Below are positions 46,149 through 49,280 of a stretch of 64,000 bases of DNA, piece by piece (positions within the stretch are counted from its first letter, which is position 1; each line of letters opens with the position of its first letter). The notes below the pieces were generated by a model. That model was not told the origin of the DNA, searched no databases, and saw only the letters and a list, made by a program, of their open reading frames with translations. The DNA lies in the NCBI GenBank assembly GCA_016932735.1, contig JAFGCI010000006.1:127144-191143 (forward strand), given 5' to 3'. The translations under genes were made by a program, and so were the position numbers. The stretch comes from Candidatus Aenigmatarchaeota archaeon (lineage in GTDB: Archaea; Aenigmatarchaeota; Aenigmatarchaeia; QMZP01; QMZT01).

Positions 46149-47078
46149 TTAGGCCCAGTAAGGGTTCCTGAGGTATTTGAATATCGAATAAACTGCAAGA
46201 TGGCCTTCTCCTATGGCTTCGGGTATCCGCATCAGTTTCCCCGTTATATCACCAGCGGCATAAATGCCGTCAATGGATGTTTTCATCTGATTGTCGACAA
46301 CGACTTTGTTGCCTTCCATCTTTATGTCAAGGTCTTTGAGATAATCAATACTTATGACAGAACCTGCAAAAATGAATATATCATCGAACTTATCGTTCTT
46401 TGTTTTGCTTTTGATGTTATCAAGAAGGGTCACCGATTCTATGTTTTCAGCGCCAGCCTTTATTTCAGTGAGTTCTGTGTTGAACAGAATTATGGCATCT
46501 GTCTTGTTTATACATGCAGTATTCTTTTCAGTGCATCTGAAGACATCTTTCCTGTGCACAATTGACACGTCGGCCTTGGCATTAGATAATGCGAATGCGG
46601 CCTCAACTGCCGTATCGCCTCCTCCCACCACAAGAACCTTGTGACCCTCATATAGTGCAGGATTCTTTATTGAATAATGGACTCTCTTATGATCCTCCCC
46701 GTTTATTCCAAGTTTCCTAGGCGTTCCTGCAATTCCCGTTGCTATGAGAATCGACTTGGTCTCGTATTCCTTTTTAGTGGTATGAATCATGAATGTCTTG
46801 GATTTTTCATTCTTTTCTATCTTCTCGACCGGCTCCTTTTCCCTGATTTCGCTTCCTTCCCTCTGGACATGATCCATCATTATGTCCGACATCTCCTGCC
46901 CGGTCTTATTCCAAAAGCCGAGGAAAGAATCGACCTTCTTCCAGGGATAACCCTGTATCAGCGCCCCTCCTCCAAGGTTGGCCTCAATTACTATATGTTT
47001 AAGCTTGAGATAGGAAGCTGTCAGGGAAGCTGAAAGCCCCGCTGGCCCTGCACCGATAATGATAAGGTCATAAATCAT
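46149..47078 (-). CDS. Thioredoxin-reductase-fold FAD/NAD(P) oxidoreductase lacking CxxC (FNR/YumC-like)
   Basis: IIGAGPAG, ATG, VGGGDTA, TS..GIYAAGD; VHYSIKNP where TrxR has CxxC; start ATG 47078. Confidence 0.85.
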   Translation of the reverse strand: MIYDLIIIGAGPAGLSASLTASYLKLKHIVIEANLGGGALIQGYPWKKVDSFLGFWNKTGQEMSDIMMDHVQREGSEIREKEPVEKIEKNEKSKTFMIHTTKKEYETKSILIATGIAGTPRKLGINGEDHKRVHYSIKNPALYEGHKVLVVGGGDTAVEAAFALSNAKADVSIVHRKDVFRCTEKNTACINKTDAIILFNTELTEIKAGAENIESVTLLDNIKSKTKNDKFDDIFIFAGSVISIDYLKDLDIKMEGNKVVVDNQMKTSIDGIYAAGDITGKLMRIPEAIGEGHLAVYSIFKYLRNPYWA

Positions 47079-47130
47079 AAAATCACTGATTATTCTATGG
47101 ATTTCTAAATATAAATCCTTCCCGGAATCT

Positions 47131-48168
47131 ATGAACATGTACAAGATTAAGTCGGTTCCGCAGGATTTCGTGGTCGATGAGATTACAGACATAGAGGAAT
47201 CTAAAGCTTCTTCAAAACTTCGCTGGAAGGAGAAAATGGATTTGCTAAGGAACAAAAAAAAGAAACCGGCAAGGAAATTCACTGTTTTCAGGATGACAAA
47301 AACCGATATAGATTTTTTCAGGGCAATTGAAATGCTTTCTGAGAAAACAGGAATTCCTAAAAAGGAATTCGGATACGCCGGGACAAAGGATAAAAAAGCT
47401 GTGACCAGCCAGATGATTTCCATTCCGGAATATCATAAAGAGAATCTGGGAACAATGAAAATAAAAGGAATAAGGATATCGGATATATTTGAGACGGATA
47501 AACCGATAAAGCTTGGCAATCTTTCCGGAAACAAATTCAGGATAATTGTCAGGAACATCGATTCCGAAGAAAGAATCAGAATAGAAAAAAATATCGAAAA
47601 GATAAAGAAAGATGGTTTTCTTAATCTCTTCGGGGAGCAGAGATTCAGCAAAGACAACATAGAAATAGGGAGGCTTCTTGTCAGGAAGGATTTCAAAAAA
47701 GCCGCAGAACTCATCGCATCCTCAAATAACGATGTCAGGCATTACCTTTCCAGAAACAATGATGACTGTATAGGGGCAATAGAAATCCTTCCTAGAATGC
47801 TTTCAAAAATGTTTGTCCATGCTTACCAGTCCTATATATGGAATATGACCGCTGGCCAGATAAAAAAAGACTGCATGATACCAATAATCGGCTCAAAAAC
47901 CAAACTTGAGAATTATCCGGACTCAAGGAAGATAATAGAGAAGATAATGAAGAAAGAGGGGATACTTCTTTCGGATTTCGTGATAAAGGATATCATGCCC
48001 CTAAGCACGCGGGGAGAAGAAAGAAAATCGATGATAAAACCGGAAAAATTCACTCATACATTCAAAGAGGACGGGATGAATAAAGGGCAACTGAAGCTAA
48101 TCCTGAGTTTTGTGCTTCCCAAAGGAAGCTATGCAACGGTCCTTATTGATTTTATAATGAAGATATAA
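47131..48168 (+). CDS. truD: tRNA pseudouridine(13) synthase TruD/Pus7
   Basis: PQDFVVDE, YAGTKDKKAVTSQ, LG.L.GN.F.I, FGEQRF, F.LPKGSYAT. Confidence 0.93.
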   Translation: MNMYKIKSVPQDFVVDEITDIEESKASSKLRWKEKMDLLRNKKKKPARKFTVFRMTKTDIDFFRAIEMLSEKTGIPKKEFGYAGTKDKKAVTSQMISIPEYHKENLGTMKIKGIRISDIFETDKPIKLGNLSGNKFRIIVRNIDSEERIRIEKNIEKIKKDGFLNLFGEQRFSKDNIEIGRLLVRKDFKKAAELIASSNNDVRHYLSRNNDDCIGAIEILPRMLSKMFVHAYQSYIWNMTAGQIKKDCMIPIIGSKTKLENYPDSRKIIEKIMKKEGILLSDFVIKDIMPLSTRGEERKSMIKPEKFTHTFKEDGMNKGQLKLILSFVLPKGSYATVLIDFIMKI

Positions 48169-48191: not shown

Positions 48192-49280
48192 ATGCCTAAA
48201 AAAGCTTCCGAGCCTAAGAAGTCTAAAACCGTTCCTGAAGGAACTTTGAGAATTAGTTCCAAAGAACTGAACGTTTATGAGAAAACAAAGTCGGGCTGGG
48301 AGAAGTCGGATAAACAGTTCCCTAATGCGATGCATGTTATTGACCTTTTCAAAGCTCATGATAATTTTGACATCCTGACAGACAAGAAAAATCCGAAGTG
48401 GCTCAAGGGACAGGTTTCCCCTGAAGGTAAATTGCAAGGGGCGAGAATAAACGTTCTTCCTGACGGGCGCCAGCTTGACAAGGCTTTCTCTTTGTTTGCG
48501 GAAGAGCTGACAATACATGATGCAACGACGAATGACCACTGGGACGTCCTTTACAGGAATCCCGGCGGGACTTATTCCTACGTATACACGCTCGAAAAGG
48601 ATGCAAAGACGAGAAGCAAGAAATACCAGGCGGTCGGGGAGTTTGAAAGGGTCTATCCCATCCTCATCGAAAATGTCAGAAAGGCGCTTTTTGATGAGAA
48701 CGATGACATGGCGGTTCCCATGTACACTCTTCTGAAAACACTGATGAGAATAGGCAATGAGATATATTTCAAAGCCCACGGACACAAAGGCCTCACAACC
48801 CTGAAGAAGAAGGATGTGACAATACGGGGAAAGCATGTCACTTTCAAATACCTTGCAAAAAATGGCGTGCCTTCAACAACAACAAGAAAGTTTCCCGGGA
48901 TTTACGTGGACAGGCTCAGCAAGAGGCTTTCAAAAATAAAAATGTCAGATTTCGTTTTTGCGAATACTGAAACAGGACATCCTTTAAGCGAGTCCGCATT
49001 CAAGCATGCATTCGCCAGATACTGCGGCGAGGAATTCTATCCGCATATTGTCAGATCATATTACGGAACAAAGAGAGCTGAGGATTTTCTTAAAAACAAC
49101 AATGAGGCAACCAAAAAAGAGGTAAGGAGATTCTTCCTGTCGGTTGCCGACAAGCTCAACCATAAGAGATTCGTAAAGAAAAAAGGCATCTGGACGGAAA
49201 GCTGGACGGTCACAGTCAATCATTACATAAGGCCGGAACTCGTGGAGAAGATAAAAAAGCTATCCGAATCAAATCTGTGA
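48192..49280 (+). CDS. DNA topoisomerase IB-like protein (tyrosine recombinase/TopIB catalytic fold)
   Basis: Catalytic pentad in order: MRIGNE, GLTTL, YLAKNG, HIVRSY, KLNHKR, NHYI.PE. Confidence 0.78.
   Translation: MPKKASEPKKSKTVPEGTLRISSKELNVYEKTKSGWEKSDKQFPNAMHVIDLFKAHDNFDILTDKKNPKWLKGQVSPEGKLQGARINVLPDGRQLDKAFSLFAEELTIHDATTNDHWDVLYRNPGGTYSYVYTLEKDAKTRSKKYQAVGEFERVYPILIENVRKALFDENDDMAVPMYTLLKTLMRIGNEIYFKAHGHKGLTTLKKKDVTIRGKHVTFKYLAKNGVPSTTTRKFPGIYVDRLSKRLSKIKMSDFVFANTETGHPLSESAFKHAFARYCGEEFYPHIVRSYYGTKRAEDFLKNNNEATKKEVRRFFLSVADKLNHKRFVKKKGIWTESWTVTVNHYIRPELVEKIKKLSESNL

What the first reader, a model, noticed from the sequence alone, without database searches (positions are those of the whole stretch)
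48192..49280. Compact type IB topoisomerase-like enzyme with eukaryote-like active-site motifs
Seen: R-K-R-H-Y in TopIB order: MRIGNE (human LRAGNE), YLAKNG (FLGKDS), HIVRSY (KVFRTY), VADKLNHKR (VAILCNHQR; bacterial forms have LGNT), NHYIRPE (NYLDPR). About 20 residues separate His and Tyr, longer than poxvirus and much shorter than the eukaryotic linker; the N-terminal domain is unfamiliar. Established: archaeal TopIB is best known from Thaumarchaeota/TACK and Asgard lineages. Inference: a distinct minimal TopIB clade in a DPANN-like genome, informative for TopIB origins; it sits among housekeeping genes and not in an evident mobile element.
Basis: partly seen in the sequence, partly recalled or inferred. 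Interest (0 to 1): 0.75.

Follow-up and report, generated by a model that had tools for sequence, protein, structure and literature searches.

The report
Compact DPANN-specific type IB topoisomerase
The gene encodes a real, probably active DNA-relaxing enzyme (type IB topoisomerase) of a compact, strongly conserved family found only in tiny DPANN archaea; topoisomerase reviews do not describe it, and it is no more eukaryote-like than bacterial- or phage-like.

Summary
The ORF at 48192..49280 (+), 362 aa, is as described. It passes Pfam Topoisom_I (46.8 bits, cut-off 23.7) and fails Phage_integrase. A confident AlphaFold model (pLDDT 91) matches only TopIB structures at E about 1e-11; recombinases score 1e-4. 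In 120 homologs R186, K223, R288 and H324 are invariant, Y345 is kept in 119, and the His-Tyr spacing is always 21.

The protein belongs to a sharply bounded family (100/100 support, very long stem). It occurs in 17 of 371 genomes of the window's phylum (Aenigmatarchaeota by record labels) and 37 of 401 around a Woesearchaeota genome. It is single-copy and chromosomal, with no conserved neighbours and no viral-contig hits. The host also has Topo IA, Topo VI and gyrase.

"Eukaryote-like" is only locally true, at HKR...W.ES after the His. Profile comparison scores jumbo-phage (206) and bacterial short TopIB (200) above long TOP1 (121). The second Arg sits in H-x-x-R, as in jumbo-phage TopIB and tyrosine recombinases, not K-x-x-R. 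True long TOP1 exists in sister orders.

The sister group is unresolved: three placements survive AU tests. Residues 1-64 have no detectable relative. Verdict: a new variant of a known kind. The same family was already flagged elsewhere in this scan.

The parts
48192..49280 (+). Gene for the 362-aa short DPANN-type topoisomerase IB (stop codon included)
   Evidence: ORF list; Pfam Topoisom_I 46.8 bits against a cut-off of 23.7; AlphaFold model pLDDT 91.1, pTM 0.80; Foldseek top 22 PDB hits are all TopIB.
48192..48239 (+). Residues 1-16: Lys-rich, poorly conserved, disordered N-terminal tail (MPKKASEPKKSKTVPE)
   Evidence: pLDDT below 50 for residues 1-5 and mean column conservation 0.29. A DNA-contacting role is inference only.
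48240..48443 (+). Residues 17-84: family-specific N-terminal extension (three short strands 19-38, helices 44-55 and 59-62)
   Evidence: Conserved as strongly as the catalytic core (0.69). Residues 1-64 lie outside every profile-profile alignment. In the 1.84-billion-protein representative search, matches outside the family start at about profile position 97-138, so the first ~100 residues matched nothing outside the family. No PDB fold match; only weak SH3/Sso7d-like hits at probability 0.35.
48444..48590 (+). Residues 85-133: beta-sheet N-domain (cap) ending in the hinge tyrosines Y130/Y132
   Evidence: Strands 86-132 in the model. hhalign to jumbo-phage TopIB covers residues 65-354. 'SYVY' aligns with 'KYVW' of CsTOP1, whose Y207 is the DNA-contacting hinge tyrosine (PMC8748870). 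Y132 is invariant and Y130 is kept in 114 of 120.
48591..49268 (+). Residues 134-359: catalytic domain. Codons: R186 48747-48749, K223 48858-48860, H285 49044-49046, R288 49053-49055, H324 49161-49163, Y345 49224-49226
   Evidence: R186, K223, R288 and H324 are kept in 120 of 120 homologs, Y345 in 119 of 120, H285 in 115 of 120. Aligns with the CsTOP1 tetrad.
49164..49223 (+). Residues 325-344: 20-residue segment between the catalytic His and Tyr, predicted as a beta-hairpin (325-328 / 333-336) with invariant W334, then a short helix
   Evidence: Secondary structure from the model. His-Tyr spacing is 21 in all 120 homologs and W334 is invariant. It is an insertion relative to the bacterial and phage profiles. 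Its start aligns with the start of the long-TOP1 linker.
48150..48157 (+). TTTTATAA, a possible archaeal TATA box 35-42 nt upstream of the ATG, inside the 3' end of truD
   Evidence: Read directly from the sequence. Inference only.

Best explanation
The gene encodes a functional type IB DNA topoisomerase of a DPANN-specific short family.

Inferred mechanism, from the family chemistry. The two-lobed enzyme clamps duplex DNA between the N-terminal beta-sheet cap (residues 85-133, hinge Tyr130/132) and the catalytic domain. Tyr345 attacks one strand and forms a 3'-phosphotyrosyl link. R186, K223, R288 and H324 stabilise the transition state and protonate the leaving group. The cut strand swivels and is resealed, which relaxes positive and negative supercoils without ATP or Mg2+.

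Family-specific additions. There is a conserved ~65-residue N-terminal extension and a conserved 20-residue beta-hairpin between His and Tyr, at the site where eukaryotic TOP1 carries its coiled-coil linker. Both probably add DNA contacts or control rotation. There is also a recombinase-like or phage-like His (H285) in place of the usual Lys, three residues before the second Arg.

Cellular role. The enzyme is accessory. It supplements Topo IA, Topo VI and, in this genome, gyrase, most likely as a swivel during transcription and replication.

Shown: family membership, fold, conservation, distribution, chromosomal context. Inferred: enzymatic activity, the roles of the extension and hairpin, and the cellular role.
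For: Pfam Topoisom_I is above its cut-off and Phage_integrase is below. The nearest solved proteins by sequence are CsTOP1 (5.9e-13), D. radiodurans TopIB (8.6e-11) and poxviral TopIB (about 1e-7). The model has pLDDT 91. The top 22 Foldseek PDB hits are all TopIB (7e-12 to 4e-6), and XerH recombinase scores only 1e-4. The pentad and the 21-residue spacing are conserved in 119-120 of 120 homologs, and the N-extension is as conserved as the core, which indicates purifying selection on the whole protein. The family is one clade with 100/100 support. It is single-copy in a genome that is 90.6% complete with 0.3% contamination. It is present in 17 of 91 genomes of the order and is near-fixed in some genera, for example 8 of 10 in g15. 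It was found in 149 species genomes overall and in 37 of 401 genomes around a Woesearchaeota genome. Neighbours are housekeeping genes and differ between genomes. There were no hits in 2.9 million viral contigs or 50,697 phage records. Topo IA, Topo VI-A and GyrA are present in the same genome.
Against: The Pfam score is modest (46.8 bits, against 97-130 for the short TopIBs outside the family that were scanned), so this is a divergent branch. H-x-x-R in place of K-x-x-R, plus a sub-threshold Phage_integrase hit (21.8 bits), leaves room for a strand-transferase activity other than simple relaxation. Distribution is patchy (about 5-9% of sampled genomes), so the enzyme is dispensable. One homolog (P0015) has His in place of the Tyr, but its three cluster mates at 89-93% identity keep Tyr.
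Confidence: 0.85

Rival explanations
1. The family is a reduced derivative of the long archaeal/eukaryote-like TOP1. An Aenigmatarchaeota or DPANN ancestor carried the long enzyme. The CAP domain was replaced or shrunk, and the coiled-coil linker collapsed to the 20-residue hairpin. This is the 'eukaryote-like' reading in evolutionary form.
For: Both careful ML trees place the family as sister to the long TOP1 clade. The profile's best PDB hit is CsTOP1. The post-His segment GHKR-F-VKKxxx-WKES resembles NHKR-x-LPKx-WExS at the start of the linker. Genuine long TOP1, with Topoisom_I_N + Topoisom_I + Topo_C_assoc and E=9e-147 to CsTOP1, occurs in 13 genomes of other orders of the same class. No genome in the 371-genome sample has both forms.
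Against: Support for the sister grouping is weak (66/16 and 80/31), and it joins the two longest stems (1.0-1.3 and 1.5-1.7), the classic long-branch pattern. The AU test does not reject a bacterial-sister tree (p 0.47) or a phage-group tree (p 0.43). hhalign scores long TOP1 lowest (121, against 200 and 206). The long forms have K-x-x-R, not H-x-x-R. Extended His-Tyr spacers with a Trp also occur in unrelated short clades (P0185/P0220, jumbo phages), so the hairpin need not be a linker remnant.
Confidence: 0.25
2. The family shares a specific common ancestor with the TopIB of jumbo phages (PaBG, Lu11, phiRSL1, Motura and similar) and an environmental group (P0180/P0262). Together they form an 'H-x-x-R type' lineage, and the gene reached DPANN (or the phages) by ancient transfer.
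For: The best Foldseek hits of the whole model in the viral library are these phage proteins (2e-16 to 6e-14, TMq 0.61-0.63, 320-337 columns, against about 270 for PDB TopIBs). They give the highest hhalign score and the longest alignment, residues 65-354, which includes the cap domain. His three residues before the second Arg is shared: 115 of 120 in the family, 6 of 6 in phage, 4 of 4 in the P0180 group, against Lys in 49 of 50 other sequences. The phages also have extended His-Tyr spacers of 15-19 residues. The quick tree grouped the family with the P0180 group (SH-aLRT 81). The AU test does not reject the joint clade (p 0.43).
Against: The careful ML trees do not recover the grouping. The phage proteins are 541-668 aa, with an N-terminal region of about 250-300 aa that is absent here. 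There is no tblastn hit of the protein in phage records, no PHROG hit and no IMG/VR hit. H-x-x-R could be an ancestral state shared with tyrosine recombinases and not a derived one.
Confidence: 0.3
3. The protein is not a general relaxing enzyme. It is a site-specific strand transferase (tyrosine recombinase, resolvase or telomere resolvase) that happens to score as TopIB.
For: A sub-threshold Phage_integrase match (21.8 bits, E 1.7e-4). The recombinase-like H-x-x-R motif. Some homologs carry precomputed PF00589 hits, and NCBI nr names one 'tyrosine-type...'.
Against: Topoisom_I is above its cut-off and Phage_integrase is below. The fold match to TopIB is 7e-12, against 1e-4 for XerH, and no protelomerase appears among the hits. 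The beta-sheet cap with its hinge Tyr and the Y-I-x-P motif are TopIB features. There is no association with mobile elements, repeats or viral contigs, and gene neighbours vary.
Confidence: 0.05

Closest known systems
Bacterial short TopIB (Deinococcus radiodurans TopIB, PDB 2F4Q/3M4A; Pfam Top1B_N_bact + Topoisom_I)
   Same: Similar size (about 300-370 aa). Two-domain build with a small beta-sheet cap and a catalytic domain. Same Arg-Lys-Arg-(His/Asn)-Tyr order. The block RVGNEIY..HKGLTTL resembles RVGSDIYARQHKTYGLSTL. hhalign score 200, E 1.5e-27; Foldseek 1e-11. The best non-family hits in the 1.84-billion-protein search are of this type.
   Different: No Top1B_N_bact match. An extra ~65-residue N-terminal extension. 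Always His where 21 of the 28 aligned bacterial-type sequences have Asn (LGNT). His-Tyr spacing 21, against 9. H-x-x-R, not K-x-x-R. A 98/97-supported branch keeps it outside the bacterial-type clade.
Jumbo-phage TopIB (Pseudomonas phage PaBG gp84, Lu11, Ralstonia phiRSL1 ORF108, Achromobacter phage Motura; phrog_23460)
   Same: Highest structural and profile similarity: Foldseek 2e-16 to 6e-14 and hhalign 206 over residues 65-354, cap domain included. Shared H-x-x-R. His at the fourth catalytic position. Extended His-Tyr spacer.
   Different: The phage proteins are 541-668 aa, with a large extra N-terminal region. The spacer is 15-19 residues and lacks the invariant Trp hairpin. No direct BLAST or PHROG match. 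The careful trees do not recover them as sister.
Long archaeal/eukaryotic TOP1 (Caldiarchaeum CsTOP1, PDB 6Z01/6Z03; human TOP1; thaumarchaeal TopIB)
   Same: The same catalytic tetrad aligns residue for residue. His at the fourth position. HKR...W.ES after the His resembles NHKR..P..WE.S. The hinge tyrosine is conserved. It is the ML sister in both careful trees, with weak support.
   Different: No CAP domain (Topoisom_I_N), no coiled-coil linker, no Topo_C_assoc. About 200 residues shorter. H-x-x-R, not K-x-x-R. Lowest profile score of the three (121). True long TOP1 exists separately in sister orders of the same class.
Poxvirus TopIB (vaccinia/variola, 314 aa; PDB 1A41, 2H7F, 3IGC)
   Same: Compact two-domain enzyme with His at the fourth catalytic position. 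Best single Foldseek PDB hit (variola, 7e-12, 270 columns). Sequence hits at about 1e-7 with the profile.
   Different: No match to the viral N-terminal domain model. The poxviral His-Tyr spacing is 9 and its Tyr motif is S-K-x-x-Y (established knowledge), against 21 and T-[IV]-[HN]-H-Y here. This family has an extra N-terminal extension.

Membership tests
Type IB topoisomerase superfamily (Pfam PF01028 Topoisom_I) | Significant match to the Topoisom_I catalytic-core model above the curated cut-off | tested here: met
   46.8 bits against a cut-off of 23.7, E 3.2e-12, residues 142-331. The same result came from the whole-genome search.
Type IB topoisomerase superfamily (Pfam PF01028 Topoisom_I) | Catalytic Arg-Lys-Arg-His/Asn-Tyr pentad, in order and conserved | tested here: met
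   R186, K223, R288 and H324 kept in 120 of 120 homologs, Y345 in 119 of 120. The first four align with the CsTOP1 tetrad R269/K306/R367/H410 (PMC8748870). The Tyr aligns with the Y-I-x-P tyrosine of the bacterial and phage profiles.
Type IB topoisomerase superfamily (Pfam PF01028 Topoisom_I) | TopIB fold: catalytic domain plus N-terminal cap with a DNA-contacting hinge tyrosine | tested here: met
   Model pLDDT 91. Top 22 PDB hits are all TopIB, E 7e-12 to 4e-6. Y130/Y132 align with the CsTOP1 hinge Y207 region.
Type IB topoisomerase superfamily (Pfam PF01028 Topoisom_I) | ATP- and Mg-independent relaxation of both supercoil signs through a 3'-phosphotyrosyl intermediate | not testable with these tools
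   Needs purified protein.
Long eukaryote-like TOP1 (eukaryotes, Thaum-/Aig-/Bathyarchaeota, Asgard) | CAP domain (Pfam Topoisom_I_N) N-terminal to the catalytic core | tested here: not met
   No hit even at E<=10. The long TOP1 of a sister order scores 182 bits.
Long eukaryote-like TOP1 (eukaryotes, Thaum-/Aig-/Bathyarchaeota, Asgard) | Coiled-coil linker between the catalytic His and Tyr, and the Topo_C_assoc C-terminal domain | tested here: not met
   His-Tyr spacing is 21 residues in all 120 homologs. No Topo_C_assoc hit (against 62 bits for L097).
Bacterial short TopIB (DraTopIB type) | Top1B_N_bact N-terminal domain | tested here: not met
   No hit. Present in 8 of the nearest non-family relatives.
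Bacterial short TopIB (DraTopIB type) | Falls inside the bacterial-type clade; K-x-x-R and a short (9-residue) Asn/His-Tyr spacing | tested here: not met
   A 98/97 branch excludes it. It has H-x-x-R and a spacing of 21. A sister relationship is not rejected (AU p 0.47).
Jumbo-phage TopIB (phrog_23460, PaBG type) | Match to the phage family model and its full 540-670 aa architecture | tested here: not met
   No PHROG hit for the window protein, while the PaBG protein scores 985 bits. No tblastn hit in phage records. The window protein is 362 aa, against 541-668 aa for the phage proteins.
Jumbo-phage TopIB (phrog_23460, PaBG type) | Common clade with the phage enzymes; shared H-x-x-R | tested here: inconclusive
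   H-x-x-R is shared and the hhalign and Foldseek scores are the best of all groups. The ML trees do not unite them, and the AU test does not reject the union (p 0.43).
Tyrosine recombinase / integrase (Pfam PF00589) | Phage_integrase model above cut-off; recombinase fold closer than TopIB; association with a mobile element | tested here: not met
   21.8 bits, below the cut-off of 27.1. XerH scores 1e-4, against 7e-12 for TopIB. Neighbours are housekeeping genes and vary between genomes, and there are no viral-contig hits.

The most novel reading that the evidence does not exclude
DPANN short TopIB, jumbo-phage TopIB and a related environmental group may form a third, 'H-x-x-R type' lineage of type IB topoisomerases. 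This lineage would keep the recombinase-like His next to the second Arg and carry a small hairpin between the catalytic His and Tyr, at the exact site where eukaryotic and archaeal TOP1 has its coiled-coil linker. It would then be an architectural intermediate, either between tyrosine recombinases and canonical TopIB or between short and long TopIB, and the eukaryotic linker would be an elaboration of this hairpin. The conserved, DPANN-only N-terminal extension would be a new DNA-binding or regulatory module.
Probability: 0.25. Interest if true: 0.75.

Novelty: new variant of a known kind. Interest (0 to 1): 0.55.

Why it matters
Reviews and primary papers describe TopIB as either long (eukaryotes and archaea of the Bathy-/Aig-/Thaumarchaeota group and Asgard) or short (bacteria and viruses). 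A 2021 table of archaeal topoisomerases lists no TopIB for DPANN (PMC4824112, PMC8748870, PMC8185306). This family is a short archaeal TopIB with its own architecture, present in about 150 species genomes.

It shows three things. DPANN archaea with roughly 1-Mb genomes can carry four topoisomerase types. Short and long TopIB coexist within one archaeal class, in different orders. The His-Tyr segment and the residue beside the second Arg vary more across TopIB than the textbook classes suggest.

A small, strongly conserved enzyme like this is an attractive subject for structural and single-molecule study of how caps and linkers control strand rotation. It also adds a long-missing archaeal branch to the debate on TopIB origins. 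The limits: the function is predicted, not measured; the phylogeny is unresolved; and databases already hold the family, with IMG naming some members 'DNA topoisomerase IB'.

Tried and rejected
- NCBIfam gave no family. PHROGs gave none for the protein or its N-terminal 135 residues.
- The fold search of residues 1-135 alone found no significant PDB match. The SH3/Sso7d-like hits at probability 0.35 are too weak to use.
- Viral origin was tested and not supported: no relative in IMG/VR by family peptide patterns and no tblastn hit in 50,697 phage records.
- Conserved operon or mobile element: the commonest neighbour cluster occurs in only 12 of 92 loci, none of the window's neighbours recur, and there is no recurrent integrase.
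- Replacement of another topoisomerase was rejected. Topo VI-A is in 86 of 91 genomes of the order. GyrA is confined to two families, while TopIB occurs with it (11 genomes) and without it (6 genomes). The window's own genome has all of them.
- A lineage that lost the catalytic Tyr (P0015, Tyr to His) was rejected. Its cluster mates at 89-93% identity keep Tyr, so it is a singleton.
- Resolving the sister group: two careful ML trees and two AU tests leave three placements standing.
- Source names for the neighbouring unlabelled clades were mostly absent.
- The sigma-70 promoter and terminator scan was uninformative for an archaeon.
Full report
OBSERVATION. The window has an ORF at 48192..49280 (+) of 362 aa. 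Pfam's Topoisom_I model matches at 46.8 bits, above the gathering cut-off of 23.7 (E 3.2e-12, residues 142-331). Phage_integrase reaches only 21.8 bits against a cut-off of 27.1. NCBIfam has no model for the protein.

IDENTITY AS A TOPOISOMERASE IB. As a single sequence, the protein's nearest solved relatives are D. radiodurans TopIB (1.2e-5) and the variola and vaccinia enzymes (about 1e-3). With a profile of 32 family members (A1) the ranking becomes Caldiarchaeum subterraneum TOP1 (6z01, 5.9e-13), D. radiodurans (8.6e-11), vaccinia and variola (about 1e-7), then Leishmania (0.016). In that alignment R186, K223, R288 and H324 fall exactly on R269, K306, R367 and H410, the published CsTOP1 catalytic tetrad. 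The 'SYVY' of the cap aligns with the hinge tyrosine Y207 (PMC8748870).

An AlphaFold2 model built from the family alignment is confident (mean pLDDT 91.1, pTM 0.80). Its top 22 Foldseek hits in the PDB are all TopIB: variola 7e-12, Deinococcus 1e-11, human 1.7e-11, CsTOP1 2e-11. Tyrosine recombinases (XerH) appear only at 1e-4, and no protelomerase is listed.

Across 120 homologs, R186, K223, R288 and H324 are invariant and Y345 is present in 119. The His-Tyr spacing is 21 in every sequence, and W334, P348 and Y132 are invariant. The one Tyr-to-His sequence (P0015) is a singleton, because its cluster mates at 89-93% identity keep Tyr. I conclude, with about 85% confidence, that this is an active type IB topoisomerase.

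THE FAMILY. The word-indexed search found 528 or more homologs at 55-82% identity. Almost all are called 'hypothetical protein' in Aenigmatarchaeota and Woesearchaeota MAGs; IMG names a few 'DNA topoisomerase IB'. An exhaustive profile search of 1.84 billion cluster representatives shows a sharp boundary. About 30 representatives score E<1e-30, the full-length ones at 250-515 bits. The next best score is 83 bits, and those matches start at about profile position 97-138. So the first ~100 residues are found only in this family.

The nearest non-family hits are bacterial-type short TopIBs carrying Pfam Top1B_N_bact. In GTDB species genomes, 149 stretches encode a family member. Their labels are Aenigmatarchaeota, Woesearchaeota, Nanoarchaeota, Pacearchaeota and others that look like mislabelled bins.

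ORGANISM AND TOPOISOMERASE COMPLEMENT. The window lies in a 1.18-Mb genome of 11 contigs, 90.6% complete and 0.3% contaminated, with one TopIB gene. A genome of the same order is an NCBI 'Candidatus Aenigmatarchaeota' chromosome. The window's genome also encodes Topo IA, Topo VI-A and GyrA.

Within the phylum sample of 371 genomes, 17 carry the short family. All 17 are in the window's order, so 17 of 91 in that order. Thirteen genomes in other orders of the same class carry something else. Those 13 genes are genuine long TOP1. They have Topoisom_I_N + Topoisom_I + Topo_C_assoc domains, a coiled-coil linker, E=9e-147 to CsTOP1 and 6e-79 to human TOP1. No genome in the table has both forms.

Topo VI-A is near-universal in the order (86 of 91). 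GyrA is limited to two families. The short TopIB occurs with gyrase (11 genomes) and without it (6 genomes). Around a Woesearchaeota genome, 37 of 401 sampled genomes carry the family. The enzyme is therefore accessory. It is patchy between families yet nearly fixed in some genera, for example 8 of 10 genomes in g15.

CONTEXT. The window neighbours are an NAD(P)HX dehydratase, a thioredoxin-reductase-like flavoprotein, TruD, a radical-SAM protein, SdpI-like and hydrolase proteins, and a MatE transporter. Across 92 loci no neighbour is conserved (maximum 12 of 92), none of the window's neighbours recur, and no integrase recurs. The family is absent from 2.9 million IMG/VR contigs. The protein has no tblastn hit in 50,697 phage records. 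The gene is a stand-alone chromosomal gene. A TTTTATAA at 48150-48157, 35-42 nt upstream of the ATG, could be its TATA box (inference only).

ARCHITECTURE. The model shows five parts:
- a disordered Lys-rich tail (residues 1-16);
- an extension of three short strands and two helices (17-84);
- a beta-sheet cap (85-133);
- the catalytic domain (134-359);
- within the catalytic domain, a beta-hairpin (325-328 / 333-336) between H324 and Y345.

The extension is as conserved as the catalytic core (0.69). Modelled alone, residues 1-135 fold confidently (pLDDT 89.1) but match nothing in the PDB (best E 0.15).

IS IT 'EUKARYOTE-LIKE'? Only locally. This gene's LNHKR is the minority form: the family has Gly before the His in 118 of 120 sequences, giving LGHKR. 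After the His, GHKR-F-VKKxxx-WKES does resemble NHKR-x-LPKx-WExS at the start of the long-TOP1 linker.

Like-for-like profile-profile comparisons rank the long form last:
- jumbo-phage TopIB: score 206, E 3.3e-27, family residues 65-354;
- bacterial-type short TopIB: score 200, E 1.5e-27, residues 112-355;
- long TOP1: score 121, E 8.2e-16, residues 113-340.

The phage link came from Foldseek against the viral library. The best hits are the TopIBs of Achromobacter phage Motura, Pseudomonas phage PaBG and a relative, at 2e-16 to 6e-14 and TMq 0.61-0.63 over 320-337 columns. I fetched six such genes.

One character separates the groups. The residue three before the second catalytic Arg is His in the DPANN family (115 of 120), in jumbo phages (6 of 6) and in a related environmental group (4 of 4). 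It is Lys in bacterial-type (29 of 29), long TOP1 (7 of 7) and 13 of 14 other sequences. H-x-x-R is also the tyrosine-recombinase arrangement (established knowledge). That explains the sub-threshold Phage_integrase hit.

The long His-Tyr spacer is not unique either. Jumbo phages have 15-19 residues. A bacterial-MAG clade (P0185/P0220) has 19-20 residues with a Trp.

PHYLOGENY. I built two careful IQ-TREE analyses (LG+C20+F+G4 PMSF) of the catalytic domain. The first used 102 sequences and 280 columns. The second used 79 sequences and included the labelled phages. In the first run the ultrafast bootstrap had not fully converged, so its values are rough.

Both give the DPANN family 100/100 support on the longest stem (1.46-1.66). 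The long TOP1 clade gets 100/100, the jumbo-phage clade 100/99 and the bacterial-type clade 98/97-99/81. In both trees the ML sister of the family is long TOP1. Support is only 66/16 and 80/31, and the pairing joins the two longest branches. AU tests do not reject holding the family with the bacterial clade (delta lnL 2.0, p 0.47) or with the phage/P0180 group (delta lnL 5.1, p 0.43). The family is a distinct deep branch, and its sister group is unresolved.

LITERATURE. Dahmane et al. 2016 (PMC4824112) and Takahashi et al. 2022 (PMC8748870) describe short TopIB in bacteria and viruses, and long TopIB in eukaryotes and the Bathy-/Aig-/Thaumarchaeota (plus Asgard). Garnier et al. 2021 (PMC8185306) list no type IB enzyme for DPANN in their table. 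Full-text searches that paired topoisomerase IB with DPANN lineage names found no description of this family. The library covers open-access papers only, so a description elsewhere cannot be excluded.

EARLIER NOTES OF THIS SCAN. Three follow-up reports on other genomes (e1-1494350, e1-1117210, e1-1458738) reached the same core reading: a DPANN-wide short TopIB that is chromosomal and undescribed in reviews. I consulted these notes only after I had formed my own reading, and they are not independent evidence. New here are the jumbo-phage structural and profile link, the H-x-x-R character, the long TOP1 in sister orders of the same class, the co-occurrence tests with gyrase and Topo VI, and the AU tests.

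VERDICT. The gene is a real, very probably active TopIB of a DPANN-specific short family with its own N-terminal extension, His-Tyr hairpin and H-x-x-R motif. It is a new variant of a known kind.

Noticed in passing
L097-L104 (genomes G060, G011, G114, G092, G117, G116, G121 of other orders of the same class): Other orders of the same class as the window's genome carry a full-length eukaryote-like TOP1 (495-578 aa) with Topoisom_I_N, Topoisom_I and Topo_C_assoc domains, at E=9e-147 to Caldiarchaeum TOP1. So long TOP1 also exists in this DPANN phylum, apparently never in the same genome as the short form.
   Followed up: partly
L101 (G117:C30:24500-29000, minus strand), 740-aa ORF: One long TOP1 carries an insertion of about 170 residues inside the CAP domain, between '...LSPGAPIP' and 'WKEVVWLKDCMWISRWDD'. 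It could be an intein or an inserted domain.
   Followed up: no
G344:C157, G342:C6, G274:C129, G351:C2, G337:C35: In several genomes of the order the GyrA match is split at about Pfam position 80-92, within open frames of up to 1107-1366 aa. That suggests an intein or other insertion at a conserved GyrA site.
   Followed up: no
P0235 (855 aa, environmental): A protein that fuses an ADP-ribosyltransferase exoenzyme domain (PF03496) and zinc-finger motifs to a C-terminal short TopIB catalytic domain. P0242 fuses a TopIB to DUF5661.
   Followed up: no
window 46149..47423 (-): The longest ORF for the thioredoxin-reductase-like flavoprotein has a hydrophobic N-terminal stretch of about 116 residues before the Pfam match starts, at 'MIYDLIIIGAGPAG'. 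Either the true start is that internal Met or the enzyme has a membrane anchor.
   Followed up: no
G000: C11:5563-6774, C1:2393-2602, C1:8312-9628, and window 48192-49280: A 1.18-Mb DPANN genome encodes four topoisomerase types: Topo IA, Topo VI, gyrase and TopIB. Within the order, gyrase is confined to two families (f1 and f4).
   Followed up: partly
P0185, P0220 and relatives: A separate clade of short TopIBs, one member labelled a Deltaproteobacteria MAG, also has a 19-20-residue His-Tyr spacer containing a Trp but keeps K-x-x-R. Extended spacers therefore occur in several TopIB clades.
   Followed up: partly
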